The notes under the pieces were generated by a model, which ran no database searches, had not been told where the DNA came from, and saw only the letters and a list, made by a program, of their open reading frames with translations. A DNA stretch of 64,000 nt from Candidatus Omnitrophota bacterium (GTDB lineage Bacteria > Omnitrophota > Gorgyraeia > 2-02-FULL-51-18), in the NCBI GenBank assembly GCA_016197155.1, contig JACPWF010000025.1, positions 28,276 through 92,275 of the forward strand. Direction: 5' to 3'. A program made the translations under genes and the position numbers. Of the stretch, positions 46,360 through 64,000 are shown in pieces; the first letter of the stretch is position 1; every line of letters begins with the position of its first letter.

Positions 46360-46369
46360 TGCCCTTCTT

Positions 46370-47803: not shown

Positions 47804-48266
47804 ACGTCCTCTCCTTCTTTCCCAAAAGTTCCTTTAGTTCCTTCATGAACTGATTGATGTCCTTGAACTGCCGGTACACCGAGGCGAAGCGTACGTACGC
47901 GACCTGGTCGAGTTTGTGCAGGTGGTCCATCACCAGCTCCCCGACGACCTGGGCCTTCACTTCCTTGTCGAAACTTTTTTGAAGTTCCTTTTCCACCCGG
48001 TCGACGACGGCCTCCACTTTTTCCATCCCGACCGGGCGCTTTTCGCAGGCCTTTAAAATCCCCGAGATGATCTTGTTGCGGTCAAACGGCTCGCGACGGC
48101 CGTCTTTTTTCACGACCATGAGCGGGATCTCCTCGATGTACTCGTAGGTCGTGAAGCGCTTCTTGCATTTCAGGCATTCGCGGCGGCGGCGGACACTTTT
48201 GTCTTCGTTCGACGAGCGCGAATCGATGACCTTGTCTTCGGTGTGAGAGCAGAACGGGCATTTCAT
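47793..48266 (-). CDS. nrdR: transcriptional repressor NrdR
   Basis: [42 protein letters not shown] zinc ribbon + ATP-cone; 157 aa. Confidence 0.9.
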
Positions 48267-49528: not shown

Positions 49529-49995
49529 TTTTTCTTTTTTCCCTTTTTAAGGAGACCCACTTTTTTCTCGATTTGCGCGATCTGGCTCACGCGCCGTTTG
49601 TGCCGCCCGCCCTCAAACCGGGCCCCCAGCCAGCTTTTTAAGATGGTTTCGGGGTCGTCAAAAAGGTGCTCGGAGCCGAGGACCAGAATATTCGCGTCGT
49701 TGTGCTGGCGCGACAGGACTGCGACGTTCTTGTCAAAGCAGATCGCCGCGCGCACGCCGGGAAGTTTATTGGCCACCATCGCCATTCCGTTGCCGCTTTT
49801 GCAGATCAGGACCCCGAGGTCCGCTTTTTTTTCGGACACGGCCTTGGCCACCTTGTACGCGTACTTCGGGTAATCGCAGGGCTCGGGTCCGTTCGTCCCG
49901 TAGTCCGCCGTCTGATAGCCGGCCTGCGCCAGAAAATCCTTTATCTCGCTTTTTAAACGGAAACCGCCGTGATCCGCGCCGAGCGCTATTTTCAT
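49525..49995 (-). CDS. rpiB: ribose-5-phosphate isomerase B
   Basis: [15 protein letters not shown]...[14 protein letters not shown]; 156 aa. Confidence 0.85.
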
Positions 49996-50008
49996 TTCGT
50001 GGGCCCTT

Positions 50009-50452
50009 TCAAATTTTCTTCACCAGGTTCGTGACACAGTCCCGAATCGTCGCGAGCGTGTTTTTGTAAAAATAGTCGGACATCCGGATCGGGTCCGGAA
50101 TGCCCTCTTTGCCCTCCGAGGAAAACTCCGTCAGGAGAAAAACTTTTTTTTCGGAATCCGGCGCGATCCGCAAGATCCAGTCCTTGTGCATTTTTTCCAT
50201 CACGAGGATCCTGTCAGCGGCCTTGATCCTCTCGGGCGTGAGCCGCCGCGTGCGGTGACCGGAGACGTCGACCCCTTCCTCTTTCATCGCGCGCACAGTC
50301 TCGTCGGTCGGCGGAAATCCGTCCACCGCGGCCACGCCCGCCGATCCGACCGCGAACTCCCCCGCCCGGCCTCCGGCGATTTTTTTAAACAAACCCTCCG
50401 CCATGACCGAGCGGCAGCTGTTGCCGGTGCAGACAAAGAGAATGTTTTGCAT
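50009..50452 (-). CDS. low-molecular-weight protein tyrosine phosphatase / arsenate reductase-fold protein
   Basis: P-loop CTGNSCRS (CX5R) at the N-terminus; 147 aa. Confidence 0.75.
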   Translation of the reverse strand: MQNILFVCTGNSCRSVMAEGLFKKIAGGRAGEFAVGSAGVAAVDGFPPTDETVRAMKEEGVDVSGHRTRRLTPERIKAADRILVMEKMHKDWILRIAPDSEKKVFLLTEFSSEGKEGIPDPIRMSDYFYKNTLATIRDCVTNLVKKI

Positions 50453-50463
50453 AAAGAATCAAA

Positions 50464-50586
50464 AAGGCTATCAGGATATCAGGAGATCAGGAGGTAGAAC
50501 ATCGGGAGACCAGGAGATCAGGAGTTTTCCTGATAACCTGATAGTCTGGTGTCCTGCCCCCTGATGGCCTGATAGCCTGATAGCCG
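50464..50586. repeat. dispersed intergenic hairpin repeat, copy 2
   Basis: ctatcaggatatcaggagatcaggaggtagaacatcgggagaccaggagatcaggag-tttt-cctgataacctgatagtctggtgtcctgccccctgatggcctgatagcctgatagcc; between the LMW-PTP gene start and the purE stop. Confidence 0.6.
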
Positions 50587-50598
50587 CCTTAACAAGAT

Positions 50599-51084
50599 TC
50601 ACAAAACCACTCTCTTCTTCAATATTTTCTCTCGATTTTTTTCCCTATAATCTACCAGCGCCTTAGCAAGTTTGGTGTCTTGAAGAGCCAGCATGCGCGC
50701 TGCCAAAAAAGCGGCATTGCGAACCCCGCCGGATCCCACCGCAACGGTGGCCACTGGGGTGCCTGCGGGCATTTGCACCGTAGATAAAAGAGAATCCATT
50801 CCTTTAAAAGAAGGGCTTTCGATAGGAATTCCGATAACGGGCAGTTCTGTGTGCGCCGCCACAACACCGGCCAAATGCGCCGCGCCGCCCGCCGCGCAAA
50901 TAAAAACCCGTATCCCGTTTTTCTTCGCCGCTTCCACGTAGCTCACCGTCTCTTTGGGGGTGCGGTGAGCCGAAAGCACGCGAACCTCGTAGCCAAGACC
51001 CAATTCTCTCAAAACTTCTCCGCAAGGTTTAAGCTGTTCTGCGTCGGAGTCACTTCCCATCAAAATGGCAACTTGTGGCTTCAT
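50599..51084 (-). CDS. purE: 5-(carboxyamino)imidazole ribonucleotide mutase
   Basis: [10 protein letters not shown]...SAHRTP...AGGAAHL; 161 aa. Confidence 0.9.
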
Positions 51085-51097
51085 GATTTATCCTTTG

Positions 51098-52375
51098 TTA
51101 TTTCATCACCCTGACCGCTTTGTGTCCGATGTCTTTCCGGTAAACCATTTTATCAAAAAATATTTTATCCACCGCGGAATAAGTCTTGGACAGCGCCTCG
51201 AACATGCTGCGCGCGCAGGCGACGACGTTCAACACGCGCCCGCCAGCCGTCACGAGCCGGCCGCCTTCGATTTTTGTCCCCGCGTGAAAAATGTGGACGT
51301 CCGGATTTTCCTTCGCGGTGGAAATCCCCGCTATCTTTTTTCCCATTTCAACCGTCTCGGGATAGCCGTGCGAGGCGATGACCACGCACACGCAAGTTTC
51401 GTCCGCCCATTCCAGTTTGACGCGCGAAAGGTTCCCCTCCACCGTCGCCAGGATCACATCCAACAGATCGTTTTTCAGGCGCGGAAGAATGGCCTGCGCC
51501 TCGGGGTCGCCGAGACGGACGTTGAATTCAAGCACGCGAAATCCGTCGAGGGTCACCATGATACCGGCGTAGAGAAAACCTTTAAAGGGATGCCCTTCTT
51601 CCTTTAGTTGCCTGACAATCGGCATAAAAACTTTCTGAAGCAGTTCCTTTTCGAGCTCGTCGGTCACGACCGGCGCCGGCGAATAAGCGCCCATCCCGCC
51701 GGTGTTGGGCCCCGTGTCTCCCTCGTGAATGCGCTTGTGGTCCTGGCTCGACGCCAAAAGCCGCACCGCCTCGCCGTCGGTGACGGCGATCACCGAGGCC
51801 TCCTCGCCCTCGAGACATTCCTCGATCACGATTTTCTCGCCGGCCTTTCCGAAAACTTTTTTCACCATGTCGCGATGGATCGCCTCCATCGCCTTGGGTT
51901 TGGATTGGGCCACCGTGACGCCCTTGCCGCCGGCCAGGCCGTCGACCTTTACCACGATGGGCACGCCCTTTTTCGCGACGTAATCCATCGCCTTGTCCGC
52001 GGAATCAAATACCTCAAATTCGGCGGTCGGGATCGAGAGTTTTCGCATGATCTCTTTTGAAAAAACCTTGGATCCCTCGAGCTGGGCCGCGTATTTGGAG
52101 GGGCCGAAAATTTTAATTTTCTCTTTTTCAAAACGGTCGACGATGCCCTCGACAAGCGGCGCCTCGGGGCCGACCACGACGAGGTCAATCGCCTTTTTTT
52201 TGCAAAATTGAAGGAGCCGCTCCTGGTCTTTGGCGGCGATGTCCACACACTCGGCCACTTCGGCGATGCCTGCGTTTCCGGGGGCCGCGTAAAGTTTTGT
52301 CAATTTCGGCGAAAGCGAAAGCTTCCAGCACATCGCGTGTTCGCGGCCGCCGTTTCCAATTACCAATACTTTCAA
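51098..52375 (-). CDS. purD: phosphoribosylamine--glycine ligase
   Basis: [14 protein letters not shown]...ATP-grasp; 425 aa. Confidence 0.9.
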
Positions 52376-52400
52376 TTTAATTCTCCTGTGCTACCACGTA

Positions 52401-53402
52401 CTACTGAATAACCACTCCTTCTTCCTTAACTACTTCCCCGATCACCCACGCGCGCTCTTTGAATTTTCCCAAACGCGAAATGACTTTGAGCGCGCGCTCC
52501 TTCGGCGTCACGAGGGCCATGCCGATGCCCATGTTGAACGTGCGGTACATCTCGGTGAGCGACGCCCTCCCCGCCTCGCCGATCCACCGGAAAACCCGCG
52601 GCACCGGCCAACTGCCCGTGTGAATGCGGGCGCCACAGCCCTTGGGCAGGACGCGCGGGATGTTGTCAAAAAATCCGCCGCCGGTGATGTGCGCCATCGA
52701 AAAAACGGGTTCTTTTTGAATCAGGGAAAGGATGGGCTTCACGTAAATTTTTGTGGGTTTTAAAATTTCATCCGCGTGCGAACGGATGAATGCGCTTTTC
52801 AATACTTTTCTCACGAATGAAAAACCGTTCGAATGGATCCCGCTCGAAGCGATCCCGATGATCGCGTGCCCCGCGCGCGCGTTTTTCCCGTCAATGATTT
52901 TTTCCCGGTCCACCACGCCCACGCAAAATCCCGCCAGGTCAAAATCCCCCCTCGCGTAAAGCCCGGGCATCTCGGCCGTCTCGCCGCCGATCAAAGCGCA
53001 ACCGGCCTCCTTACAGCCCCTGGCCACGCCGCTCAGGATCGCGCGCATCATCCCGGGGCTCAGCTTTCCCACCGCGAAATAATCCAGAAAAAAAAGAGGC
53101 TCCGCGCCCAAAGTCAAAATGTCGTTCACGTTCATCGCCACGAGGTCCACGCCGAGCCCCTCGTAACGGCCGGTCTTTTTTCCCAAAACCAGTTTTGTCC
53201 CGACGCCGTCGGTGGAACTGACAAGGATGGGCTCTTTGTATTTTTTGTCCGGCAGGCGGCACAGCGCCCCGAAGCCGCCGATCCCGGCCAGGACCTCCGG
53301 GCGGGCCGTCGCGCGCGCGTAGGGCTTGATGGTCTCAATGAAAGCGTTGGCCCTATCAATATCGACGCCGGATTTTTTATAGGTGAAACTTTTTGTCCTC
53401 AC
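52401..53402 (-). CDS. purM: phosphoribosylformylglycinamidine cyclo-ligase (AIR synthetase)
   Basis: YKKSGVDIDRANAF..., GIGGFGAL..., DGVGTKL. Start assigned to GTG (VRTKSFTYKKSGVDI) abutting the purF stop. Confidence 0.85.
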   Translation of the reverse strand: MRTKSFTYKKSGVDIDRANAFIETIKPYARATARPEVLAGIGGFGALCRLPDKKYKEPILVSSTDGVGTKLVLGKKTGRYEGLGVDLVAMNVNDILTLGAEPLFFLDYFAVGKLSPGMMRAILSGVARGCKEAGCALIGGETAEMPGLYARGDFDLAGFCVGVVDREKIIDGKNARAGHAIIGIASSGIHSNGFSFVRKVLKSAFIRSHADEILKPTKIYVKPILSLIQKEPVFSMAHITGGGFFDNIPRVLPKGCGARIHTGSWPVPRVFRWIGEAGRASLTEMYRTFNMGIGMALVTPKERALKVISRLGKFKERAWVIGEVVKEEGVVIQ

Positions 53403-54832
53403 TGGCCTTTTTCCGTGTGAAACTTGTCGATGCCGTCGAAACGGACCGGATAATCCCCGCTCCAACAGGCCGTGCAGTAGCTTTCTTTCGGGTATTTCAC
53501 GCACGAGAGCATCCCCTCGAGCGAGAGGTAGCCCACCGAATCGCAGTCGAAATATTTCCGGATCTCGTCGGGCGAATACTTGTTCGCGATGAGCTCTTCC
53601 CGCGTCGGAAAATCAATGCCGTACGCGCAGGGGTACTTGTGCGGCGGACAGCTGATCCGGAGATGCACCTCTTTGGCGCCCGCCTGCCGCAGGCTCTTCA
53701 CGCGCACCTTGGAGGTCGTGCCGCGCACGATCGAATCGTCGACGATCACGACGCGCTTGCCGCTCAAGACCTCGCGGACAAAATTGAATTTGAGCCGCAC
53801 CTTAAAATCGCGCATGCCCTGGCTCGGCTGAATGAACGTCCGGCCGACGTAGTGATTGCGGATGATGCCGGCCTCGAGAGGGATCCCGGACTCCTGGGAA
53901 AATCCGAGCGCGGCCGAATTGCCCGAATCCGGCACGGGGATCACGATGTCCGCCTCGACCGGTTTTTCCTTGGCGAGCTGTCTGCCGAAACGTTCGCGCA
54001 CCAGGTGGACCGACTCCCCGAAAATTTTCGAATCGGGCCTCGCGAAATAAACATGCTCAAAGACGCAGTGCGCGTGGCGCGTGCCGGGATCGACGGGAAG
54101 TTTCTGCGACTTCACCCCTTTTTCGGAAATGAATAAAACCTCGCCCGGCTCGATCTCGCGGACGGCCTGGGCGTCCATGATGTCAAAGGCGCAGGTCTCC
54201 GACGAAACCACGTGCGCGTTTCCGATCTTCCCGAGCCACAAAGGCCGAAACCCCTGCGGGTCGCGCGCCGCGACGAGATACTGGTGCGTCAAAAACACGA
54301 GCGAATAGGCGCCCTTCACGCGCGCGAGCGCCTCGACCACGCCCTCTTCGACATTGCGGAGCGAGGGCTTGGCCATTAAATGGATAATGATTTCACTGTC
54401 CGTGGTGGTTTGAAAGATGGAGCCGTAGGCCTCCAGTTCCGAGCGCAGGATGTCGGCGTTGACGATATTTCCGTTGTGGCCGATCGCGATCTCGCCGCGC
54501 GAATAATCGACCAAAATCGGCTGGGCATTTTTCAAAAGGCTTGAGCCGGTCGTCGAATAACGCACGTGCCCGATCGCGCGATCGCCGGTAAGATTAGCCA
54601 GATCCGCGTCCTGAAAAATCTCCTGCACGTGGCCCATGCCTTTGTGGACGCGCATCTTTTTGCCGTCGGAGGTGACGATGCCGGCCGATTCCTCGCCGCG
54701 ATGCTGGAGCGCGTAAAGCCCGAGGTACGTCAGGTACGCCGATTCTTTATGGCCGTAGATCCCGAAAACGCCGCATTTATCCTTCAACTCATGAGGCATA
54801 AATTCCTTTTTGAATTCAACCTGCCTCCCCAT
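53399..54832 (-). CDS. purF: amidophosphoribosyltransferase
   Basis: Ntn CGVFGIYG after a short propeptide (MPHELKDK), PRTase motif; an upstream in-frame ATG at 54832 may or may not be used. Confidence 0.9.
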   Translation of the reverse strand: MGRQVEFKKEFMPHELKDKCGVFGIYGHKESAYLTYLGLYALQHRGEESAGIVTSDGKKMRVHKGMGHVQEIFQDADLANLTGDRAIGHVRYSTTGSSLLKNAQPILVDYSRGEIAIGHNGNIVNADILRSELEAYGSIFQTTTDSEIIIHLMAKPSLRNVEEGVVEALARVKGAYSLVFLTHQYLVAARDPQGFRPLWLGKIGNAHVVSSETCAFDIMDAQAVREIEPGEVLFISEKGVKSQKLPVDPGTRHAHCVFEHVYFARPDSKIFGESVHLVRERFGRQLAKEKPVEADIVIPVPDSGNSAALGFSQESGIPLEAGIIRNHYVGRTFIQPSQGMRDFKVRLKFNFVREVLSGKRVVIVDDSIVRGTTSKVRVKSLRQAGAKEVHLRISCPPHKYPCAYGIDFPTREELIANKYSPDEIRKYFDCDSVGYLSLEGMLSCVKYPKESYCTACWSGDYPVRFDGIDKFHTEKGQ

Positions 54833-54836
54833 TTTC

Positions 54837-54874
54837 CTCCCCTTACCAAGGGGAGGTGGTCGCCAAAGGCGACC
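54837..54874. repeat. two adjacent hairpins sharing arm motifs with the 22152-22264 element
   Basis: cctcccctt-acc-aaggggagg followed by ggtcgcc-aaag-gcgacc. On the minus-strand mRNA the first hairpin sequesters a GGGGAGG SD-like sequence just upstream of the purF region. Confidence 0.5.
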
Positions 54875-54881
54875 GGAGGGG

Positions 54882-55124
54882 TCAATTATTTTTTAATTTT
54901 TCAATCCAATGACTCACGTGCCTGGCCATCCCCTCGCGGCCGACGGGTTCCTTTAAAATGACGTCTAATTTTTTCTCCCACACGGACAATTCTTCCGCCA
55001 GATCCGGCACGGGCGCCAATTTCCGCGCCGCCTTCACCGCCGCTTCGATTTTCCCGCGCTCCGCCGAACCCCTGACCAGGTCCGCGATCGCCTCCAAAGC
55101 CCGAATGGTTTTTTCGTCAGCCAC
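54882..55124 (-). CDS. hypothetical small protein (80 aa) embedded in pur operon
   Basis: [60 protein letters not shown]...; helical, no recognised motif; 8-nt overlap with the purL start. Confidence 0.4.
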
Positions 55125-57396
55125 GCATCCTCCTTCCGATGGCGTTCCGCCAGGTGTGGGACAACACCCTGACCGGTATCGGGGTCAGACCCCTGTGGAT
55201 AACTTGGATTGCCAAATCCTCTCCCCCCGTCTTCCCGATCACTTCATACGGAGTGGCGGATGATTGTATCACCTCTTCGGCCTTTTTTAAATTTTTAGGG
55301 CTCACGGAGATCACGACGCGCGATTGGGATTCGCCGAATAAAAGGGCCTCGGTCGACACATCCGTAGGGGCGACGCGACGCCCGCCTGCCGGACGGGCAG
55401 GCGTCGCCCCTACATTAATGGCCGCCCCCATTTCGTAACCTTTGTTTGAAATACAGGATTCCGCCAGCGCCACGGCGAGCCCCCCCTCCGCGCAGTCGTG
55501 CGCGGAGGCCAATAAATTTTCTTTCGCCAGACGGATCATGAGATCATTCAGCGCCTTCGCCTCTTTCAAATCCAGCCGCGGGCAAACGCCCGCCTTCACT
55601 CCAAAAATCGTTTTTAAAAATTCCGAGCCGCCGAGTTCCTCGCGCGTTTGGCCCAGCAAAATCACGACGTCCCCTTCATTTTTGAAATGCGACGTCACGG
55701 GCTCGCGGCCCTCGATGAGCCCCACCATCCCGATTGTCGGCGTGGGATCGATCGCCCCTTTGGGATTTTGATTGTACAAAGAAACGTTTCCGCCCGAGAC
55801 GGGCGTCTCAAAGGCCAGGCAGGCGTCCCGAATCCCCTCGATGCATTTTTTCAGGGTCCAGAAAATCTCGGGATTCATCGGATTCCCGAAATTGAGGCAA
55901 TTGGTAATGGAGAGCGGCACAGCCCCCGCGCACGCGACGTTCCGCGCGGCCTCGGCCACCGCGATCTTGGCGCCTTCATAGGGATCCAGATAACAATACG
56001 TCGAGTTGCCGTCCGTCGAAATCGCAATCGACTTATTCGTGCCTTTGATGCGAATGACGGACGCGTCCGATCCGGGCAGGACCACGGTGTTCGTGCGCAC
56101 CATGTGATCGTACTGCCCGTAGACCCATTCTTTCGAGGCGATCGACGGCGCGTCCAACAGTTTCAACAACACCGCGTTCAAATCGCCGGCGCTCCCGAGA
56201 GATTTGGGATCAAAATTTCCCGCGCTTTTCAAATACGCGGGTTCTTTTTCCTCCCGAATGTAAACCGGCGCGTCGTCGGCGAGTTTTTTGGCGGGGATTT
56301 CGGAAACCGTGACCCCGTTTTCTTTCACGCGCATGAGGCCGTCATCCGTCACAAGGCCGATGGCTTCGGCGTGCAGGTCCCATTTCTCAAAAATCCGTTT
56401 TGCCTCGGCCTCGCGGCCTTTTTTCAAAATGACGAGCATCCGCTCCTGCGATTCGGAGAGCATGATTTCGTAGGGAACCATCCCCGTCTCGCGCTGGGGG
56501 ACCTTCGCGACGTCAATCTCGACCCCTGTATTTCCGCGCGAGGCGGTTTCACAGGTGGAACACGTGAGCCCCGCCGCCCCCATGTCCTGGATCCCGACCA
56601 CACAGCCGGATTTCAAAAGTTCCAAAACCGCTTCGAGCAAAAGTTTTTCAAGGAACGGGTCCCCCACCTGAACGGCGGGCCTGTCTTTTTCGGAGGCTTC
56701 GCTCAAATCTTTTGAGGCAAAGGCCGCGCCGCCCATCCCGTCGCGGCCGGTCGCCGCGCCCAGATAAAAAACGGGATTGCCCGTTCCCTCGGCCTTGGCC
56801 TTCACAATTTCTTCACGGCGCGCCAGTCCCAAAGCAAACGCGTTCACGAGAGGATTGCCCTCATAAGATTCATCAAAATAAATTTCGCCGCCGATCGTCG
56901 GCACGCCGATGCAATTTCCGTAGTGCGAGATGCCGGCCACGACCCCGGACAAAAGACGTTTCGTGTTTCCATTGTCATCCAATTTCCCGAACCTGAGCGA
57001 ATTCATCGACGCGATCGGCCGCGCGCCCATCGTGAAAATGTCTCGCAGGATCCCGCCGACGCCGGTGGCCGCGCCCTGAAAGGGCTCGATCGCCGAGGGG
57101 TGATTGTGGGACTCCATTTTAAAAACAACGACGAGCCCGTCGCCGATGTCGACGACCCCCGCGTTTTCCTCGCCGGCTTTCACGAGCATGCGCGGGCCGT
57201 CCTTCGGCAAAAGTTTCAAAACATTTTTGGAATTTTTGTAGGAGCAGTGCTCGCTCCACATGACGCTGAAAATTCCCAGCTCCGTGAGGTTCGGCTCGCG
57301 GCCGAGGATTTTTTTAATGGAGCCGTATTCGGCCGGCGTGATGCCGTGTTTTTGGATAATTTCCGGCGTTAATTTAATTTCTTCCGCTGTTTTCAT
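55117..57396 (-). CDS. purL: phosphoribosylformylglycinamidine synthase subunit PurL
   Basis: 759 aa, PurL (small-form FGAM synthase II) AIRS-like domains; [14 protein letters not shown]. Confidence 0.9.
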
Positions 57397-57422
57397 TTTT
57401 TCTTCTTTTCCCTAACTTCTAA

Positions 57423-58079
57423 CTACTGACTTACAATCGACTCAAATATTTTCCGCCCGTCGACGGAGCCCAATTCCCGCTCCGAAGCCCGCTCCGGATG
57501 CGGCATGAGCCCAAAGACGTTCCGCTTTTTATTGCAGATGCCCGCGATGTCTTCGACCGAACCGTTGGGATTGTCCGCGTAGCGCAAAAGGATCTGGTCG
57601 TTTTTTTTCAAATCCGCGAGCGCCTCGTCGTCGGCGAAATAATTTCCCTCCCCGTGCGCGACGGGCAGGCGGAGCCTCTGGCCTTTTTTGGTTTTCTTCG
57701 TGAATGCGGAATCGGCGCTTTCGACGCGGAGCTCGACAAACTTACAGACAAATTTTAAAGAGGCGTTTCGGAGCATGGCGCCCGGCAGAAGACCCGATTC
57801 GAGAAGGATCTGAAAACCGTTGCAGATGCCGATCACGAGCTTCCCGCGCTCGGCGTGTTTTTGCACGGCCTCCATCACCGGCGAGAAACGCGCGATGGCC
57901 CCGGTGCGCAGGTAATCGCCGTAGCTGAAACCGCCCGGAAGCACGACGCAGTCGTAGCGCGAGAGGTCGCGGTCCTTGTGCCAGACAAAATCCGCCTCCT
58001 GGCCCATCACGTTTTTTAAAACGTGACGGCAGTCCTCGTCACAATTCGAACCGGGGAAAACCACGACACCAAATTTCAC
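57423..58079 (-). CDS. purQ: phosphoribosylformylglycinamidine synthase glutaminase subunit PurQ
   Basis: (V)[15 protein letters not shown]..., [12 protein letters not shown] triad. GTG start assigned; the upstream in-frame ATG lies inside the repeat element. Confidence 0.85.
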
Positions 58080-58099
58080 AGAAAACCTCGTGTGAGAGC

Positions 58100-58195
58100 G
58101 GGTATCAGGATACCCGTTGATCAGGAAGCAGGACATCAGGAAACCAGGAAATCAGGATTTTTTTGACCTGATAACCTGATCCCCCGATACCCGCC
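58100..58195. repeat. dispersed intergenic hairpin repeat, copy 3
   Basis: gggtatcaggatacccg ttgatcaggaagcaggacatcaggaaaccaggaaatcaggat-ttttttg-acctgataacctgatcccccgatacccgcc; between the purS stop and purQ start. Confidence 0.6.
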
Positions 58196-58201
58196 TTCTC
58201 A

Positions 58202-58444
58202 CTAATTTTGTATTTCCCACCGATATTCCTCAATCACGGTATTCGCCAACAATTTTTCACACATCGCTTTGATATTTTTCTCAGTCCCCGCCCTGTCCGC
58301 GCCGTTCATTTCCAGTTCAATGTATTTGCCCATCCGCACGTCCCTGACGCCGCCAAAACCCATCGACGAGAGCGCCTGCCCCACGGCCTTGCCCTGCGGG
58401 TCGAGCACGGATTTTTTGAGCGTGACGTAAATTTTGGCTTTCAT
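58202..58444 (-). CDS. purS: phosphoribosylformylglycinamidine synthase subunit PurS
   Basis: MKAKIYVTLKKSVLDPQGKAVGQAL...; 80 aa. Confidence 0.85.
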   Translation of the reverse strand: MKAKIYVTLKKSVLDPQGKAVGQALSSMGFGGVRDVRMGKYIELEMNGADRAGTEKNIKAMCEKLLANTVIEEYRWEIQN

Positions 58445-59739
58445 TATTTCAGAACCCGCTTAAAAATCGTCCCCACGTGTTTCAGGTAATCGTCCAGTTT
58501 GAAAATCCCCTCAATCTCTTTCCGCGAAAGCCGCGAGGTCACGGCCGTCTCCCGCAAAAGAAGGTCCTTGAGAAGAAGCCGTTTGTCCCGCCACACCTTC
58601 ATCGCGTTTTTTTGGACAATTTTGTAGGCCGCTTCCCGCGAAAGTCCTTTGTCAATGAGCGCGAGTAAAACTCTCTGCGAAAAAATGAGCCCGCGCGTGC
58701 GCGCGATATTTTCCATCATGTTCTCGGGGTAAACGGCAAGTCCTTTCAGGATCGCGGTCATTTCCGACAACATGAAATCGGCGAGGGTGAATGAATCCGG
58801 CAAAATCACGCGCTCGACGGACGAATGCGTGATGTCCCGCTCATGCCAGAGCGCGATGTTTTCGAGCGCCGCGACGGCGTTTCCCCGGAGGACGCGCGCC
58901 AGGCCCGCGACGCGCTCGGCGTTCACGGGATTTCTTTTGTGGGGCATGGCGCTTGAGCCGGTCTGCCCCTCGGAAAAAGGTTCCTCGAGCTCGAGCGTCT
59001 CGGTTTTCTGGAGATGCCGGATCTCGGTGGCGAGTTTCTCGAGCGACCCGCCGAGGATCGCCAGCACCGCGACGACCTGCGCGTGGCGGTCGCGCTGGAG
59101 GATCTGCGTCGAAACGGGCGCCGCCTTGAGATTCAAAATCCGCATCGAGCGCCCTTCCACGCGCGGATCGATATTCGCGTAAGTGCCGACCGCGCCCGAC
59201 AGCTTCCCGACGGAAATCGCCTCCCGCGCGCGCTCGAGCCGCGCGAGATTCCGTTTAAATTCTTCGTAAAAAAGGAGAAATTTGAGGCCCAGCGTCGTGG
59301 GCTCCGCGTGCACGCCGTGCGTTCTACCCATCATCGGGGTGTTTTGGTGGCGAAGCGCCTGGGTTTTTAAAAGGGAAACCAGACCGGCCGTTTTGCCGCG
59401 CAAAAGGTCGATGGCCCGGCGGATCTGGAGGGAAAGGGCCGTGTCGAGGACGTCGCTTGAGGTGAGGCCTTTGTGAATGAAACGCGCCTCGGGCCCGACG
59501 GATTTTCCGACGCTCTTCAAAAACGCGGTGACGTCGTGTTTTGTAACCTTCTCAAATTGATTAACTTCGGATAATTTAAAACGGGCTTTCTTTTGGATCT
59601 TCCGGGCGGCGGCCTTCGGGATGAGGTGAAGCTCCGCCATCGCGAGGCAGGCGGCAATCTCCACATCGAGCATGGTTTGGAACCGGCTTTCCTCGGTCCA
59701 AATCTGTCCCATTTCGGGCAGGGTGTAGCGGCTAATCAA
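58444..59739 (-). CDS. purB: adenylosuccinate lyase
   Basis: MISRYTLPEMGQIW..., fumarate-lyase signature GSSAMPHKRNP; 431 aa. Confidence 0.9.
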   Translation of the reverse strand: MISRYTLPEMGQIWTEESRFQTMLDVEIAACLAMAELHLIPKAAARKIQKKARFKLSEVNQFEKVTKHDVTAFLKSVGKSVGPEARFIHKGLTSSDVLDTALSLQIRRAIDLLRGKTAGLVSLLKTQALRHQNTPMMGRTHGVHAEPTTLGLKFLLFYEEFKRNLARLERAREAISVGKLSGAVGTYANIDPRVEGRSMRILNLKAAPVSTQILQRDRHAQVVAVLAILGGSLEKLATEIRHLQKTETLELEEPFSEGQTGSSAMPHKRNPVNAERVAGLARVLRGNAVAALENIALWHERDITHSSVERVILPDSFTLADFMLSEMTAILKGLAVYPENMMENIARTRGLIFSQRVLLALIDKGLSREAAYKIVQKNAMKVWRDKRLLLKDLLLRETAVTSRLSRKEIEGIFKLDDYLKHVGTIFKRVLK

Positions 59740-59822: not shown

Positions 59823-60206
59823 TTAGGGTTTCCCTTTGATGGGAAAATACCGTACACCCGGCAGGTTTTTAAAATCTTCGTCGCTGGTCACCAACGTCGC
59901 GCCATATTCACAGGCGGTTGCATAAATAATGGAATCTGCCATGGCCAACCGGTGTTTTAAAGAAATATCAGCGGCCCTGTAAGCAATCGTATCGGTAAGA
60001 AGCGCCAATTGCGTTCTCTGAATCTCGCCGGTCGCCAGAAGAGCCATTTCCTCCCCCGCTTCTTTTTTTAATTTTTTATACACTTCGTAAAGAACGATGG
60101 TTGGGGTCAAAAGCTCATCCATTTTATGAAAATAACCGGCGTAGCTTTTGGCTAAATTTCCATTCAGAAAATATTCCAGCCATCCCGAAGAGTCAATCAT
60201 CATCAT
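59823..60206 (-). CDS. vapC: PIN-domain toxin, VapC family
   Basis: MMMIDSSGWLEYF... PIN fold with acidic residues; 127 aa; 4-nt overlap with the upstream antitoxin gene. Confidence 0.7.
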   Translation of the reverse strand: MMMIDSSGWLEYFLNGNLAKSYAGYFHKMDELLTPTIVLYEVYKKLKKEAGEEMALLATGEIQRTQLALLTDTIAYRAADISLKHRLAMADSIIYATACEYGATLVTSDEDFKNLPGVRYFPIKGKP

Positions 60207-60418
60207 AAAATTCTATCTTTCTTCTCGCGCAAATCATGCAAAGACATGGGTTTTTTTATAAACCCGCGCATTTCACTCATGGGTTTGACGGGAATAAGAC
60301 GCATGACGCCGTCTTTTACGATACACACCATTCTCTGACCTGCCTTGATATGAAGGTCTGTTCGAATGGCTTTAGGGATCACCACTTGATACTTGGTCGA
60401 AACCAATACCTCTGACAT
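60203..60418 (-). CDS. vapB: AbrB/SpoVT/MazE-fold antitoxin (VapB)
   Basis: VSTKYQVVIPKAIRTDLHIKAGQRMV swapped-hairpin AbrB-type domain; 71 aa. Confidence 0.65.
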   Translation of the reverse strand: MSEVLVSTKYQVVIPKAIRTDLHIKAGQRMVCIVKDGVMRLIPVKPMSEMRGFIKKPMSLHDLREKKDRIL

Positions 60419-60458: not shown

Positions 60459-60488
60459 ATTGTACACCACATCACAAAAAGTGTCAAT
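60459..60488 (-). promoter_or_regulatory. sigma70 promoter of the second vapBC module, with GTAAAAC direct repeat
   Basis: On the minus strand: TTGACA, 17 nt, TACAAT, then GTAAAACGTAAAAC direct repeat and GGAGG SD 6-7 nt before the ATG. Confidence 0.55.
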
Positions 60489-60528: not shown

Positions 60529-63500
60529 TTATGCCGCCTGGCGGACGGCCTGGCGGGAGGTTTGGGTGGTCTTGAGGCTGAGGCTAGTAAGCGGCATGGG
60601 CCTCATGATAAAGACGTAAACGGTCCCGCCGTCCGCCGTTGTCATGGGAAGAACGGAGACGTAATCTTTCAGCGAAGAAGGAATATTTTGAATGGAGGAA
60701 TCCTGTCTCATCCCCAAAATGGCGAGTAGCATCGCGGAGCTGTAGCTCTCTCCGGACTTGGCATCGGGGACGCGAATGTAGCGCACGCCGTCCTTGTAGC
60801 CCACGACCCCTTCGAAACGCTCGGGAAAACTGACGGCCAAATGCGCCACCGCGCGACTCAAAGATTTTTCCAAAATAGAGGTCAGGCCCTGGGAGCGAAT
60901 ATCGTTTTCATTGACCAAAACGGCGCTAAATTCGATACCGGGCGCCAGGATCCGAAGGCTGTCGATGGTTTGTTTGGCGGATGCGAGACTCGATTCGCTC
61001 GTCACATAAAATTTCACTTCCAATTGGCCCGACACGCCGGCGGTTTTGGCAAACTCATCGAGCGTTTGAACCGTCGCGGACAAATCGGGAGAGGCCAAAA
61101 GTCTTTCGTCGAACGCCATCACACCCGTCTGCCCTTCGATACTTCCTGCGAATTCTTTCAGGGACCGGATCACCTCATTCCGGAACCCGTTTCTGGCATT
61201 CAAAAGATGAATGGCTTCGAAATCAGCCTCTGAACGAGAAACAGCCGACGCTGATAATCGCGAAACACTTTCGCCGATCGGGAAACGGGCGATGGGTCTC
61301 ACGACCGCGGTAGCGGGATTAAATTGTCCGATCTGGACCTCGTCTGCGTGGGCGTCGGGAATGAAAGACAAGGCCGCCACTTTTGTCGCTAAAAGCAGTG
61401 GGATAATGACTCGACGTGCTCCACGGAAATTCGGCGCCAGACGAGCCGCAGTCTGGCGAAGCTCGTCCCGTTCCGAGGCCGTAAACGGTTCGCTGGAAAT
61501 GCCTAGCCTGTCATTCTGCGAAGCCGAGCCGTAAGGACTCGGCGAAGCAGAAAGCCGCGCACCTCTGGCGGAGTCGGTGAATTCCGGTGCCGCAAGAGAA
61601 GCTCTCAGCCGCGGGCCTTCTAGGCTCGCTTCGAGCGCCAGGCGAGCGCCGGCCGTGGTTTCATTTTTCCTTAGAAATTCCCGGGCTTCTCGGATAGCAT
61701 CAATATCGAAAGGCTCCCGGGTTAATGTATTGATAAAACCTTGGGCATGGTCATGCAAAGGTCTATTTGTTTCAACAGTGCTTCTCCCTAGCGTCAATGA
61801 ATCAATGTAGCTTCGTAGCCGCCTCAAAAGCCCGTCTTTTTCCTCAATGTCATTAGCCGCATCCAGCGTAAATTGAAATGATAAATCCCCGCCGACGTGA
61901 GGCTGGGACACCCGGATACCTTCGTTTCCAATCATTGTCTCCACTTGCGACAGCGGCAGAAAAACTGTCCGTTCGGGCTGACCTAAAGCGCTAAAACGAA
62001 CCGGCACTTTCAAAACGCCAGGGTTGGCCTCAACAAATTCGTCAAAGGCCTTGGAGACCTGCGCGGCATTCAAAAACCGGACTTCCGCGAGGCGCGCGAC
62101 CTGGTTGAGTGCGCCCACTTTCCTTTGAATAATGTCCGTGAGCCTTGCATCCTCTTCCGGAGTCCCGCCGACAACCACCCAATCCGGATAAACGGGCCGG
62201 TGAGGATCGATACCACGAGCCCCCTCAAAACCAGGCTGGCCATAAAGGGGGATTAAAAACGAGCGGGCGGCCATTTCAAAATCACGGGCGCCTTTGGCAT
62301 CAAGCGCCAAACGCAGATCGCTTCCATCCTGAACGGTGGGACGAAGCGCCTGATAAATCTCACTCGCATTTAGTCGGCTTGGATCACTTTCTGTAATCAT
62401 CAAAAAATGAAGCCCGCGTCCGCTTTGGCCGCGAGACAGAAGGACACCCGAGAGACCCGAACCTTTCTTTTCTACGACCACAGTCCGGACCTTCTCAATT
62501 TCCTCCGGTGAAATCCGCCCAGTTGCCGCCGCCGGCCCCGCCACCGAACTGTCGGCGCCTGCCTGACCGGCAGGCAGGGACAGGCGCGCCGCGCGGGGTG
62601 GATGAATGACAATGTTGACCGATGAAACTTCACATTTGGGATTATAATAAATCTCAAAGTCACTGCCAACGGGCGATAAACCAGCCAGTTTTTTAGACAA
62701 ATCCTGAATATCTTTAACATTGTCTCCCAGGATAAAAGTTTTTGTTGTCCTAACAATTTCAAGTTTGAACCATCTCAAACGAGCACGAGAATAAGTCACA
62801 TAAAAGGTTGTGAGCTTGTTCCTATTGATGTCTTCCAGATTAGTGATTGCTTGTTCCAGTTCTCCAATTTTCCAAAACTTGGGGCCATTTTCGGCAACCG
62901 CCAGCCGCGCGGCCTGATGATAGGCGGGTCGGAATTTATCGACAAAGCCTTTTGTGCCGACGATAACCGGTGTCTGCTGATGCATTTTTCGATACCGCAC
63001 ATCCAAAGTCTCTATCTCACCGGCTATCGAACTGCCACCAGCAGCCTCCAAGATAAATGCACCCGGAGCTTCCTCATAGGCAAAACGTATTCTCCCCGGC
63101 CTCTTGGGATCCGCTACATAAACGTAACCGCCATCTTTCATCCGCGGGTCTTTTCCCAATAAAACTCCCACCACATCCGCCCAGTAAGCGCCATTATAGG
63201 CATCAAAAGCTCCGCCCTCGTCCTGCATCTGTGTAATAACGGTATTAACACCCTCCGGCCGTATTTGAAGTCTTTTGCCGCCGGCGGCCATACGAATGTC
63301 CTCCCCCAAGCCCTTAATTTGGCGGATGATGCCTATTCGTCTGAAAGTTTTGGTATCCGGATTCATGCGGAAAACCATGACGCCGTCGGTTTTTTTGGAA
63401 GCGTAGAAAAGCAGGGTTTGAACGCCGTACAGGAAAATGAAAGAGGAATAGAGAGCATCTCTGCCTGTTCTTCCTTTCAAATCTCTCGCAAATATTTCAT

Positions 63501-64000
63501 CTTCCCCGGCGCTGATGACGCCGACCGGAGGTTCATGCGCAGCCCTTTCCGTGCGATGCACGGCGATGATCGTAGCCACATCTCCGTTGGGGAAATACCT
63601 TGATGACCCATCAAGGCTGTCTCCCATGACGCCAAACTTCGCCGAGCGGTTACCCGGCCACATCCCATTGGGCTCTTCCTCGCCGCCCCATCCGCTGATA
63701 ACCGCTTTCGGGACATCGTCGGAATGTACTTTTTGACCTTTTTTGGCAGCGCCGATAAGTTTTGCAGAAATGCCAGGATCTTGATAGGGGTTCAACAGTC
63801 GATCTCGAATCACTTGGTTCGTAAGATCGTCGGCGGGAAGCTGTTCATCTCCCGTTAAATTGGTCGTCCCCTGATGCTCCGCTGTGGTGCCGGACTGTTT
63901 TAAAATAGGTAGAATGTCTTCAAGGACTGTATTCGTTACATTAAGAACAATTCCTGAGGCCTCCGGATCTTCCCCTATTTCATCCAAAACCCTTCCAAGC
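60529..64000 (-). CDS. large multidomain protein: N-terminal class-I fructose-1,6-bisphosphatase domain fused to ~800 aa of unknown function; 5' end may lie beyond the window
   Basis: FBPase motifs GGEEEPNG, GDSLDGSSRYF, KDGGYVYVADPKRPGRIRFAYEEAPGAFILEAAGG in the first ~370 aa. Uninterrupted ORF of >1150 codons. The track start is a TTG, and the frame stays open to the window edge. Confidence 0.6.
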   Translation of the reverse strand, partial: LGRVLDEIGEDPEASGIVLNVTNTVLEDILPILKQSGTTAEHQGTTNLTGDEQLPADDLTNQVIRDRLLNPYQDPGISAKLIGAAKKGQKVHSDDVPKAVISGWGGEEEPNGMWPGNRSAKFGVMGDSLDGSSRYFPNGDVATIIAVHRTERAAHEPPVGVISAGEDEIFARDLKGRTGRDALYSSFIFLYGVQTLLFYASKKTDGVMVFRMNPDTKTFRRIGIIRQIKGLGEDIRMAAGGKRLQIRPEGVNTVITQMQDEGGAFDAYNGAYWADVVGVLLGKDPRMKDGGYVYVADPKRPGRIRFAYEEAPGAFILEAAGGSSIAGEIETLDVRYRKMHQQTPVIVGTKGFVDKFRPAYHQAARLAVAENGPKFWKIGELEQAITNLEDINRNKLTTFYVTYSRARLRWFKLEIVRTTKTFILGDNVKDIQDLSKKLAGLSPVGSDFEIYYNPKCEVSSVNIVIHPPRAARLSLPAGQAGADSSVAGPAAATGRISPEEIEKVRTVVVEKKGSGLSGVLLSRGQSGRGLHFLMITESDPSRLNASEIYQALRPTVQDGSDLRLALDAKGARDFEMAARSFLIPLYGQPGFEGARGIDPHRPVYPDWVVVGGTPEEDARLTDIIQRKVGALNQVARLAEVRFLNAAQVSKAFDEFVEANPGVLKVPVRFSALGQPERTVFLPLSQVETMIGNEGIRVSQPHVGGDLSFQFTLDAANDIEEKDGLLRRLRSYIDSLTLGRSTVETNRPLHDHAQGFINTLTREPFDIDAIREAREFLRKNETTAGARLALEASLEGPRLRASLAAPEFTDSARGARLSASPSPYGSASQNDRLGISSEPFTASERDELRQTAARLAPNFRGARRVIIPLLLATKVAALSFIPDAHADEVQIGQFNPATAVVRPIARFPIGESVSRLSASAVSRSEADFEAIHLLNARNGFRNEVIRSLKEFAGSIEGQTGVMAFDERLLASPDLSATVQTLDEFAKTAGVSGQLEVKFYVTSESSLASAKQTIDSLRILAPGIEFSAVLVNENDIRSQGLTSILEKSLSRAVAHLAVSFPERFEGVVGYKDGVRYIRVPDAKSGESYSSAMLLAILGMRQDSSIQNIPSSLKDYVSVLPMTTADGGTVYVFIMRPMPLTSLSLKTTQTSRQAVRQAA

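What the first reader, a model, noticed from the sequence alone, without database searches (positions are those of the whole stretch)
60529..64000. Giant FBPase fusion: class-I fructose-1,6-bisphosphatase domain followed by ~800 aa of unrecognised sequence in one open frame
Seen: the first ~370 residues carry the class-I FBPase catalytic motifs (GEEE, DSLDGSS, FAYEEAPGAFILEAAGG). The reading frame then stays open for another ~800 codons with no motif I can assign, including a low-complexity S/A/P/R linker and one hydrophobic stretch IIPLLLATKVAALSFI. The frame is also open upstream to the window edge, so the protein may be even longer.

Stand-alone FBPases are ~330 aa. A fusion this large is not a form I know of and could represent a regulatory or scaffolding module attached to gluconeogenic phosphatase activity. 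Alternatively the FBPase-like fold may have been recruited to a different phosphoester substrate.
Basis: partly seen in the sequence, partly recalled or inferred. Interest (0 to 1): 0.6.

Follow-up and report, generated by a model that had tools for sequence, protein, structure and literature searches.

The report
FBPase-like domain inside Omnitrophota giant protein
The open frame is real, but it is only the last third of a 3,462-residue multi-enzyme-like protein of an uncultured Omnitrophota bacterium, a kind of giant protein already noted in preprints, in which an apparently active fructose-bisphosphatase-like domain is paired with a dead copy of itself and followed by a fast-evolving tail.

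Summary
The ORF is the C-terminal third of a deposited 3,462-aa protein, MBI3252586.1 from Candidatus Omnitrophota. A second, independent assembly carries the same uninterrupted frame, so this is not a frameshift artefact.

The FBPase-like domain is the last unit of a conserved core of about 1,600 aa: two PGI-like domains, a degenerate FBPase-fold domain (d1), then the window's FBPase-fold domain (d2). The core recurs in Omnitrophota and Margulisiibacteriota proteins, and several of them end right after it.

All metal-binding and catalytic residues of d2 are invariant in the family. The 6-phosphate pocket is altered, and Arg243 survives only in the dead d1. This fits an intramolecular pseudo-dimer (AF2 pTM 0.84).

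The tail of about 790 aa is lineage-specific. It has orphan modules, a linker, and a C-terminal module of about 300 aa shared with positional orthologues at the same locus (toxin-antitoxin pair, then pur operon).

A repeated (A/G)ARLA motif brackets the core and the tail modules. The closest homologue has RSETR at the same junctions, so these may be processing sites. That is untested.

FBPase and PGI domains in Omnitrophota giant proteins were already reported, so this is a new member of a known kind.

The parts
60529..63999 (-). C-terminal 1,152-1,156 codons plus the stop codon (60529-60531) of a 3,462-aa ORF. It equals residues 2311-3462 of MBI3252586.1 (P0001). The gene start lies about 6.9 kb beyond the window end.
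   Evidence: The independent Logan contig L002 carries the last 2,082 codons with no stop or frameshift, with 4 mismatches in 6,101 nt.
62914..63987 (-). FBPase-fold domain d2, the catalytically intact copy (ORF aa 1-358, P0001 2311-2668). GGEEE holds E97/E98, GDSLDGSS holds D118/L120/D121, and GRIRFAYEE holds R274/R276/E280.
   Evidence: Pfam, NCBIfam and PDB matches. Active-site table across 7 family members. AF2 model with Foldseek TM-score 0.75-0.85 normalised to FBPase chains.
62899..62913 (-). Junction motif AARLA (P0001 2669-2673), directly after the conserved core. Homologues P0002, P0004 and P0151 end near this point. P0003 has RSETR at the equivalent place.
62593..62898 (-). Small orphan module of about 100 aa between two junction motifs (ORF aa 364-465).
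   Evidence: Bounded by motifs. No Pfam or PDB match. No homologue outside P0001 in 1.84 billion representatives (among the 150 listed).
62578..62592 (-). Junction motif AARLS (P0001 2776-2780).
61651..62577 (-). Orphan region of about 310 aa (ORF aa 471-779). It contains a weaker VARLA at 62086-62100.
   Evidence: No family match. No similarity to the tails of P0003, P0005, P0024 or P0152. The coding frame is supported.
61435..61650 (-). Low-complexity S/A/P/R linker carrying three motif copies: GARLA (61636-61650), GARLS (61549-61563) and AARLA (61435-61449).
   Evidence: The orthologue P0152 has the same layout: two GARLA copies in a linker before the hydrophobic segment.
60532..61434 (-). 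Conserved C-terminal module (ORF aa 852-1152). It has a hydrophobic segment RVIIPLLLATKVAALSFIP (61351-61413) and then an alpha/beta domain with GQTGVMA, AP.I.F, GLT, Y(T/S)SAMLL and RPMPLT. The predicted Rossmann-like core is at about 60769-61131.

Best explanation
The window holds the last third of a 3,462-aa multi-domain protein from an uncultured Candidatus Omnitrophota bacterium.

The FBPase-like domain (d2) is the final unit of a conserved core of about 1,600 aa: PGI-like, PGI-like, dead FBPase-fold domain d1, then live FBPase-fold domain d2. This much is shown.

I infer that d1 and d2 pack as a single-chain equivalent of the FBPase dimer. In that arrangement d2 would be a Mg2+-dependent sugar-phosphate phosphatase. 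The dead d1 would supply the Arg243-equivalent side chain that a neighbouring subunit provides in ordinary FBPases. The substrate is fructose-1,6-bisphosphate or a close relative, because the 6-phosphate pocket is remodelled.

The ~790 residues after d2 are genuine coding sequence, but they are not an FBPase accessory. They form a lineage-specific, fast-evolving string of modules. This string ends in a ~300-aa C-terminal module of predicted Rossmann-like fold that is kept in the orthologous gene of related Omnitrophota.

Modules are separated by a short repeated protein-level motif, (A/G)AR(L/M)(A/S). I read this motif as a junction signal, most plausibly for endoproteolytic processing after Arg or for docking. 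This last step is inferred only.
For: Identity and length:
- P0001 is 100% identical over 1,152 aa.
- NCBI names it MBI3252586.1, Candidatus Omnitrophota, on a 116-kb contig.

Frame continuity:
- Logan contig L002 gives the same frame over 2,082 codons, with 4 SNPs.

Conserved core:
- BLAST colinearity of P0001 1050-2675 with P0003 (42% over 1,638 aa), P0002 (40%), P0004 (35%), P0024 (25%) and P0151/P0007 (22%).
- Pfam and NCBIfam find PGI plus FBPase in all of them.
- d1 is FBPase/SBPase-fold: the family profile hits SBPase 4ir8 at E = 1.4e-7 over nearly the whole chain.

d2 looks active:
- D68, D74, E97, E98, D118, L120, D121, G122, S124, Y264, R276 and E280 are invariant in all 7 members despite 22-42% identity. 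S123 (Thr) and Y244 (Trp) differ only in the Margulisiibacteriota member P0151. K274 is always Arg.

Pseudo-dimer:
- R243 is lost in every d2 (A/G/T) and kept in every d1.
- d1 has lost D118, E97, K274 and R276.
- The AF2 model of d1+d2 has pLDDT 76 and pTM 0.84 for 706 residues, and it matches FBPase structures.

The tail is real but not tied to the FBPase:
- Homologues end just after d2.
- The coding frame is best throughout.
- The last ~300 aa are conserved in P0005 and P0152, which sit at the same locus: toxin-antitoxin pair, then purB-purS-purQ-purL.

Junction motif:
- 6 copies in P0001 against 0.14 expected, 5 in P0005, 2 in P0152.
- ARL and ARLA are the most over-represented 3- and 4-mers of the protein.
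- The copies use different codons, and no other ORF of the window has the motif.
- Two copies bracket the core exactly. P0003 carries a different repeated motif, RSETR, at the same two junctions, again with different codons.
Against: - No activity data exist. d2 scores far below every FBPase equivalog cut-off. N212, Y215 and N125 are changed, so the substrate is unknown.
- The pseudo-dimer geometry rests on pTM and residue complementarity only. I could not inspect coordinates or the PAE.
- The PGI-like domain of P0001 lacks the catalytic Glu (GVS instead of GVE). A coupled FBPase-to-PGI pathway is therefore unlikely in this particular protein.
- The motif was noticed post hoc. After Bonferroni correction, the 4-mer enrichment within P0001 alone is not significant.
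- Core-only homologues have no such motif. No protease partner was identified.
- The C-terminal-module model is low-confidence and its fold hits are generic.
- Localisation is unclear. P0002, P0003, P0004 and P0024 have signal-peptide-like N-termini, whereas P0001 starts with a NUDIX domain.
Confidence: 0.7

Rival explanations
1. Artefactual fusion. A sequencing or assembly error (frameshift, chimeric join) merged an ordinary FBPase gene with unrelated downstream or upstream sequence.
For: The source is a MAG. The ORF has atypical composition for its neighbourhood, with GC3 of about 0.5 against 0.73. The tail has no homologues.
Against: - An independent assembly of SRR12113391 gives the same frame over 2,082 codons.
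- At least five other proteins, from contigs of different samples and assemblies, are colinear over the 1,600-aa core.
- The end of the tail is conserved in two syntenic orthologues.
- 790 open codons by chance has a probability near 1e-15.
- Frame 0 scores at least as well as both other frames in every 100-codon window, tying with frame 1 in only two windows around codons 450-550.
Confidence: 0.02
2. It is the organism's housekeeping gluconeogenic FBPase, and the extra sequence is a regulatory or scaffolding appendage.
For: The catalytic residues are intact. The PGI-like domains in the same chain would catalyse the next gluconeogenic step. The gene sits in a housekeeping chromosomal context next to the pur operon.
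Against: - It scores 71 bits against a 368-bit equivalog cut-off.
- The 6-phosphate pocket is changed.
- The PGI catalytic Glu is missing in P0001 and in most family members.
- Homologues carry signal-peptide-like N-termini.
- The tail is absent from the homologues.
- Whether the genome has a canonical fbp gene could not be checked, because only 64 kb are available.
Confidence: 0.12
3. Pseudo-enzyme. Both FBPase-fold domains and the PGI-like domains are non-catalytic sugar-phosphate-binding or purely structural modules of a large surface or adhesion protein, as proposed for many Omnitrophota giant proteins.
For: d1 is clearly dead. The PGI catalytic Glu is not conserved. Sequence divergence is strong. 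The literature links these giant proteins to attachment and predation.
Against: The metal ligands and catalytic residues of d2 listed are essentially unchanged across seven members that share only 22-42% identity. This is hard to explain without selection for catalysis.
Confidence: 0.12
4. Bacterial polyprotein. The 3,462-aa chain is a precursor cut at the (A/G)AR|(L/M)(A/S) junctions into an N-terminal NUDIX module, the 1,600-aa core (equivalent to the stand-alone proteins P0002, P0004 and P0151), and several tail modules.
For: - The motif is enriched and sits exactly at module borders.
- The orthologue P0003 has a different motif, RSETR, at the same junctions, like virus-specific polyprotein cleavage sites.
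- Both motifs share an Arg preceded by a small or aliphatic residue.
- Cleavage of Omnitrophota giant proteins has been proposed, but no sites are known.
Against: No protease was identified. The only lead is sub-threshold Tiki/ChaN-clan hits in the N-terminus of P0003. The evidence comes from only three or four proteins. Three motif copies lie within 70 residues of a disordered linker, which suits a docking or repeat motif as well. There are no proteomic data.
Confidence: 0.2

Closest known systems
Class I fructose-1,6-bisphosphatase (E. coli Fbp, PDB 2gq1/2qvr; pig and human FBP1)
   Same: It has the same two-domain fold (Foldseek TM-score 0.75-0.85). It has the same metal-binding and catalytic residues: D68, D74, E97, E98, D118, L120, D121 and E280. 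Y244, Y264 and R276 are also kept.
   Different: - It is embedded at residues ~2311-2675 of a 3,462-aa chain.
- It scores far below the equivalog cut-offs.
- K274 is Arg, N212 is Gly, Y215 is Arg, N125 is Lys/Arg and R243 is lost.
- Its likely partner is a dead tandem copy rather than an identical subunit.
- AMP-site conservation is unclear.
Giant Omnitrophota proteins: 'Archaeovorins' (West-Roberts et al., bioRxiv 10.1101/2023.11.21.568195) and 'multi-enzyme metabolic clusters' (bioRxiv 10.64898/2026.06.07.730766)
   Same: It comes from the same phylum. The domain repertoire matches what those papers report: glucose-phosphate isomerase, FBPase, NUDIX/IDI-like and sugar-metabolism enzymes tiled in one polypeptide. 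Much of the sequence is orphan, and the same question arises of whether the chain is cleaved.
   Different: - At 3,462 aa it is well below their thresholds of >=10,000 or >=30,000 aa.
- Pfam finds no HEAT, dockerin, C39 peptidase or SecA domains, and my hydropathy scan finds a single marginal hydrophobic segment and no strong membrane helix.
- A search of those two papers for cleavage and linker terms found no described cleavage sites or junction motifs; I also saw no mention there of the ~1,600-aa core or the dead/live FBPase pairing, but I did not search for those specifically.
Tandem-duplicated enzymes with one degenerate half (mammalian hexokinase I, eukaryotic phosphofructokinase-1). This comparison is from general knowledge and was not tested here.
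   Same: An oligomeric sugar-phosphate enzyme has been duplicated and fused into one chain. One copy keeps catalysis, and the other loses it but is retained.
   Different: The fold and the lineage differ. Here the dead copy seems to be retained partly because it supplies an active-site arginine in trans. This is an inference.
Viral polyproteins with repeated, virus-specific cleavage motifs at domain junctions. This is an analogy only.
   Same: A short motif is repeated at module borders, conserved at the protein level but not the codon level, and differs between orthologues: AARLA in one and RSETR in the other.
   Different: This is a cellular gene. No protease has been identified and cleavage has not been demonstrated.

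Membership tests
Class I FBPase (Pfam PF00316 + PF18913; NCBIfam PRK09293 equivalogs) | Both Pfam halves above the gathering score | tested here: inconclusive
   FBPase_C scores 55.6 bits against a cut-off of 27, so it passes. The FBPase N domain scores 28.9 bits against 34.8, so it falls below. Closer family members P0002-P0004 pass both.
Class I FBPase (Pfam PF00316 + PF18913; NCBIfam PRK09293 equivalogs) | Score above an NCBIfam equivalog cut-off, meaning the same function can be assumed | tested here: not met
   The best score is 71.5 bits against a cut-off of 368.
Class I FBPase (Pfam PF00316 + PF18913; NCBIfam PRK09293 equivalogs) | Metal-binding and catalytic residues E97, E98, D118, L120, D121 and E280, plus D68 and D74 | tested here: met
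   All are present in the window domain and invariant in 7 family members.
Class I FBPase (Pfam PF00316 + PF18913; NCBIfam PRK09293 equivalogs) | Fructose-6-phosphate pocket residues N212, Y215, Y244, Y264, K274, and R243 from the neighbouring subunit | tested here: not met
   Y244 and Y264 are kept. K274 is Arg, N212 is Gly, Y215 is Arg and R243 is Ala. R243 is retained only in the upstream dead domain d1.
Class I FBPase (Pfam PF00316 + PF18913; NCBIfam PRK09293 equivalogs) | FBPase three-dimensional fold | tested here: met
   The AF2 model has pLDDT 76. Foldseek against PDB FBPases gives E = 2e-17 and target-normalised TM-score 0.75-0.85.
Class I FBPase (Pfam PF00316 + PF18913; NCBIfam PRK09293 equivalogs) | Hydrolysis of fructose-1,6-bisphosphate to fructose-6-phosphate | not testable with these tools
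   This needs an enzyme assay.
Omnitrophota giant multi-enzyme proteins (Archaeovorin-type / multi-enzyme metabolic cluster) | Encoded by Omnitrophota | tested here: met
   The name given by the source is Candidatus Omnitrophota bacterium. The syntenic orthologues are also Omnitrophota.
Omnitrophota giant multi-enzyme proteins (Archaeovorin-type / multi-enzyme metabolic cluster) | Several different metabolic-enzyme Pfams tiled in one polypeptide, including sugar-phosphate enzymes | tested here: met
   NUDIX, PGI, FBPase and FBPase_C are found, plus a second PGI-like domain and a second FBPase-fold domain.
Omnitrophota giant multi-enzyme proteins (Archaeovorin-type / multi-enzyme metabolic cluster) | Length of at least 10,000 aa (2026 preprint) or at least 30,000 aa (2023 preprint) | tested here: not met
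   The protein is 3,462 aa.
Omnitrophota giant multi-enzyme proteins (Archaeovorin-type / multi-enzyme metabolic cluster) | Many transmembrane helices; HEAT, dockerin, C39 peptidase or SecA domains | tested here: not met
   There is one marginal hydrophobic segment only. Pfam finds none of these domains.
PGI-PGI-FBPase(dead)-FBPase(live) core family (defined here) | Colinear homology over about 1,600 aa, ending with the d2 domain | tested here: met
   P0001 1050-2675 matches P0003, P0002, P0004, P0024 and P0151 at 22-42% identity over 1,270-1,680 aligned positions.
Proteolytically processed polyprotein | Repeated short motif at module junctions | tested here: met
Proteolytically processed polyprotein | Cognate protease, and cleavage products observed | not testable with these tools
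   No protease domain was found in P0001. Proteomics are needed.

The most novel reading that the evidence does not exclude
The (A/G)AR(L/M)(A/S) motifs, and RSETR in the closest homologue, are lineage-specific endoprotease sites. On this reading, large Omnitrophota multi-enzyme proteins are bacterial polyproteins. They would be cut after Arg into defined modules, one of which is the 1,600-aa PGI/FBPase core that other bacteria encode as a stand-alone, signal-peptide-bearing protein. This would supply the cleavage points that the giant-protein literature says are missing. It would also point to exported sugar-phosphate phosphatases used on material from a host or prey.
Probability: 0.15. Interest if true: 0.75.

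Novelty: new member of a known kind. Interest (0 to 1): 0.45.

Why it matters
Omnitrophota are uncultured, ultra-small, probably host-dependent bacteria. Their very large proteins are poorly understood.

This 3.4-kaa example is small enough to express and study. It shows three things:
1. A conserved, portable PGI/FBPase core.
2. A clear case of a single-chain pseudo-dimer, in which a dead domain seems to be retained because it donates an active-site arginine.
3. Short junction motifs that differ between orthologues, which gives a concrete and testable candidate for how such proteins might be processed.

For genome annotation there are two lessons. The deposited name, 'NUDIX domain-containing protein', hides most of the architecture. 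An ORF that runs off a window should not be read as a complete protein.

Tried and rejected
- The search for homologous proteins with the whole ORF and with the C-terminal 293 aa returned nothing. True relatives exist, including the identical P0001, so this reflects the word index and not absence. The exhaustive HMMER search replaced it.
- Exact look-up of P0001 in the contig collection found nothing. I could therefore not read the 6.9 kb upstream of the window or the genes before the start. Looking up the neighbouring vapB gave only an 8.9-kb Logan contig.
- The genome-contig scan with the core alignment found only a 545-aa stand-alone PGI-like gene in a Gastranaerophilales MAG. The source genome is not among the species representatives.
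- The metagenome-contig scan with the C-terminal module returned only the contig already known for P0152.
- PADLOC and PHROGs gave no match, so a defence or phage reading is rejected.
- The weak TIGR01202 bchC hit (19 bits) was dismissed as noise.
- A profile of the C-terminal module against PDB and Pfam gave nothing significant.
- Sensitive comparison of the orphan tail with the tails and N-termini of relatives found only a negligible 6.5-bit match.
- The transmembrane reading of IIPLLLATKVAALSFI was downgraded.
- A DNA-level repeat origin for the motifs is rejected, because the codons differ between copies.
- The resemblance of the P0005 motif contexts to double-glycine (C39) leader sites was considered. 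It is not consistent across the P0001 copies, so it was dropped.
- A literature search for the motif strings and for PGI/FBPase fusions found nothing relevant.

Full report
**1. The observation**

The feature lies on the minus strand. The ORF listing gives a 1,152-aa ORF at 60529..63987. The frame stays open for the four remaining codons up to the window edge.

The FBPase assignment is real, but the domain is divergent:
- Pfam FBPase_C passes at 55.6 bits against a cut-off of 27.
- The Pfam FBPase N domain falls short at 28.9 bits against 34.8.
- The best NCBIfam class-1 FBPase equivalog scores 71.5 bits against a cut-off of 368.
- The best PDB match is E. coli FBPase 2gq1, E = 3e-12.

Nothing else in the 1,152 aa matches Pfam, NCBIfam, PADLOC, PHROGs or PDB sequences. 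The tail alone has no Pfam hit even at E <= 10.

**2. The ORF is only the end of a much larger protein**

An exhaustive HMMER search of 1.84 billion representatives found P0001. It is 3,462 aa and 100% identical to the window ORF over its residues 2311-3462.

P0001 is NCBI MBI3252586.1, named 'NUDIX domain-containing protein [Candidatus Omnitrophota bacterium]', from a 116-kb contig. The window therefore holds only the C-terminal third. The start codon lies about 6.9 kb beyond base 64000.

**3. It is not an assembly artefact**

An independent Logan assembly of run SRR12113391 (L002, 8.9 kb) carries the last 2,082 codons of the same frame, followed by vapB, vapC, purB and purS. It differs from the window at 4 of 6,101 bases. 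All four lie within 61147-61190; two are synonymous and two are not. There is no stop or frameshift.

Frame 0 scores at least as well as both other frames in every 100-codon window, tying with frame 1 in only two windows around codons 450-550. The gene's GC3 of about 0.5 is well below the 0.73 of its neighbours.

**4. Architecture of the whole protein**

Pfam finds NUDIX at 28-83, PGI at 1564-1742, and FBPase N and C domains at 2412-2665.

BLAST shows that P0001 1050-2675 is colinear with five other large proteins:
- P0003: 2,388 aa, Omnitrophota, 42% identity over 1,638 positions.
- P0002: 1,684 aa, 40%.
- P0004: 1,890 aa, 35%.
- P0024: 2,181 aa, 25%.
- P0151/P0007: 1,694 and 1,638 aa, Candidatus Margulisiibacteriota, 22%.

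NCBIfam shows two PGI-like regions in this core. A profile of P0001 ~1985-2310 and its counterparts hits sedoheptulose-bisphosphatase 4ir8 at E = 1.4e-7 over almost the whole chain, followed by many FBPases.

The core is therefore PGI-like, PGI-like, FBPase-fold d1, FBPase-fold d2. The window's domain is d2.

P0002, P0004 and P0151 terminate 10-60 residues after d2.

**5. Is d2 likely to work?**

I aligned d2 and d1 of seven family members with pig FBPase and seven ordinary FBPases. My remembered pig sequence reproduced the textbook numbering at every checked site.

d2 keeps D68, D74, E97, E98, D118, L120, D121, G122, S124, Y264, R276 and E280 in all seven members; S123 and Y244 are kept in six and are Thr and Trp in the Margulisiibacteriota member P0151. 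K274 is always Arg. N212 becomes Gly, Y215 becomes Arg (Pro in P0151), N125 becomes Lys/Arg (Thr in P0151), and R243 becomes Ala/Gly/Thr.

d1 has lost D118, E97, K274 and R276, but it keeps R243 in all seven. The HMMER alignment to SBPase places that same arginine on the RY(T/V)G motif.

In ordinary FBPases, R243 reaches into the active site of the neighbouring subunit (established knowledge). The complementary pattern, lost in the live domain and kept in the dead one, is what an intramolecular d1-d2 pseudo-dimer would predict.

An AlphaFold2 model of d1+d2 (706 aa, 7-sequence alignment) has mean pLDDT 76 and pTM 0.84. That pTM suggests a defined arrangement of the two domains. Foldseek matches it to FBPase structures with target-normalised TM-scores of 0.75-0.85. 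I could not inspect the coordinates, so the interface remains inferred.

The PGI-like domain contrasts with this. It keeps its catalytic Glu (GVE) only in P0003 and P0004, and P0001 has GVS. The phosphatase centre of d2 is the one catalytic site that the family conserves.

**6. The tail (ORF aa ~365-1152)**

Only the last ~300 aa have relatives. These are P0005 (1,209 aa) and P0152/P0014 (738 and 160 aa), all Omnitrophota, at 27-33% identity.

Both relatives are cut by contig ends, and both sit at the same locus as in the window:
- Window: large gene, vapBC, then purB-purS-purQ-purL-purF-purM-purD.
- P0152 contig: large gene, vapC, then purB-purS-purQ.
- P0005 contig: large gene, antitoxin/ParE pair, then purB-purS-purQ-purL-purF-purM-purD-purE.

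They are therefore positional orthologues whose upstream parts have diverged beyond recognition.

The module begins with a hydrophobic segment. That segment is marginal as a membrane helix, and its counterpart in P0005 is not hydrophobic.

ORF aa 364-779 are orphan sequence.

**7. A repeated junction motif**

[AGS]AR[LM][AST] occurs 6 times in P0001 against 0.14 expected, 5 times in P0005, and twice in P0152. It does not occur in the core-only homologues.

ARL and ARLA are the most over-represented 3- and 4-mers of P0001 in an unbiased scan. The 4-mer alone would not survive Bonferroni correction.

The copies use different codons. No other ORF of at least 150 aa in any frame of the 64-kb window contains the motif.

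Two copies, at P0001 1063 and 2669, sit exactly at the start and end of the conserved core. The others delimit the tail modules and cluster in the linker before the C-terminal module. P0152 has the same layout.

The closest homologue, P0003, has no ARLA. It has its own exact 5-mer, RSETR, three times at 531, 578 and 2165. Two of these align with the two core junctions where P0001 has AARLA, and again they use different codons.

Short, protein-level, lineage-specific motifs at homologous module borders are the pattern expected for processing sites that co-evolve with a protease, with Arg as the shared residue. A docking motif is an alternative. Neither is shown, and I found no protease. The only lead is a pair of sub-threshold Tiki/ChaN-clan hits in the N-terminus of P0003.

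**8. Comparison with what is known**

West-Roberts et al. [quoted passage not shown] They also report an IDI (NUDIX-fold) like structure. They note that cleavage is suspected but that the cleavage points are unknown.

A 2026 preprint (10.64898/2026.06.07.730766) defines a class of 'multi-enzyme metabolic cluster' giant proteins with sugar-metabolism and NUDIX content.

The present protein fits that kind in phylum and domain content. It differs in three ways:
- It is far shorter, at 3,462 aa.
- Pfam finds no HEAT, dockerin, C39 or SecA domains.
- My hydropathy scan finds only one marginal hydrophobic segment, so it lacks the many membrane helices reported for those proteins.

A search of both papers for cleavage and linker terms found no described cleavage sites or junction motifs. 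I saw no mention there of the 1,600-aa core or the dead/live FBPase pairing, but I did not search for those specifically.

P0002, P0003, P0004 and P0024 have signal-peptide-like N-termini. This echoes the extracellular prediction in the 2023 preprint. P0001 itself starts with the NUDIX domain.

**9. Verdict**

It is wrong about what the object is.

The object is a new, comparatively small member of the already described multi-enzyme-domain proteins of Omnitrophota. The pseudo-dimer logic and the junction motifs are the parts worth following up.

Noticed in passing
window 59823-60418 (-); L003 2517-2906; L004 3725-4254: A toxin-antitoxin pair always sits between the end of the large gene and purB, but its type differs. 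It is MazE/AbrB-type antitoxin plus PIN (VapBC) in the window. In the P0152 contig I identified only the PIN toxin gene. In the P0005 contig it is an unannotated 83-aa gene followed by a ParE toxin. The cassette appears to have been exchanged at a fixed position.
   Followed up: partly
window 60529-63999 compared with 43571-59739: The large ORF has GC3 of about 0.40-0.72 (mostly near 0.5), while nine neighbouring housekeeping genes average 0.73. Its codon-usage score is correspondingly low. This could reflect fast evolution, low expression or foreign origin.
   Followed up: no
window 61147-61190: All four differences between the window and the independent Logan contig fall within 45 bp. They are N3243T, N3247D and two synonymous changes, in the variable part of the C-terminal module. 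This is a local hotspot of strain variation.
   Followed up: no
window 60459-60487 (-): A near-consensus sigma-70-like promoter (TTGACA, 17-nt spacer, TACAAT; 11 of 12 matches) lies in the 110-bp gap between the stop of the large ORF and vapB. This suggests vapBC, and possibly the pur genes, are transcribed separately.
   Followed up: no
P0001 residues 1956-1963 (outside the window): The second PGI-like domain of P0001 reads GQPGVSAYK. Ser replaces the catalytic Glu of the PGI signature. Only P0003 and P0004 keep GVE. The PGI-like domains may be sugar-phosphate binders rather than isomerases in most members.
   Followed up: partly
P0003 residues ~70-490 (L005 ~5170-6430): The N-terminal region of P0003, and a similar one in P0012, has IQTAHG...EAQ and VVITGGFHAG motifs. 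It also has two sub-threshold hits to Tiki/ChaN-clan families (DUF5694 at E = 0.02, Cofac_haem_bdg at E = 0.025). This is a possible embedded Tiki/TraB-like hydrolase just upstream of the first RSETR motif.
   Followed up: partly
P0092 (1,233 aa) and P0077 (661 aa): Other FBPase fusions exist in the protein universe. P0092 combines a canonical FBPase, SH3 domains and a full ATP-dependent PEPCK. P0077 appears to hold two FBPase domains in tandem, because two separate parts of it match the window's FBPase domain. Neither is related to the tail seen here.
   Followed up: no
window 46370-47803 (+): A SurA-N/Rotamase_2 peptidyl-prolyl isomerase gene lies 13 kb from the large gene. The 2023 giant-gene preprint mentions a conserved Rotamase_2 isomerase in secretion loci that precede giant genes. 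No link was tested here.
   Followed up: no
L006 1-7159: In the Margulisiibacteriota contig, the core-only homologue P0151 lies 0.8 kb downstream of another ORF of more than 2,823 aa that has no Pfam hit. It also lies next to glycosyltransferases and a ROK kinase.
   Followed up: no
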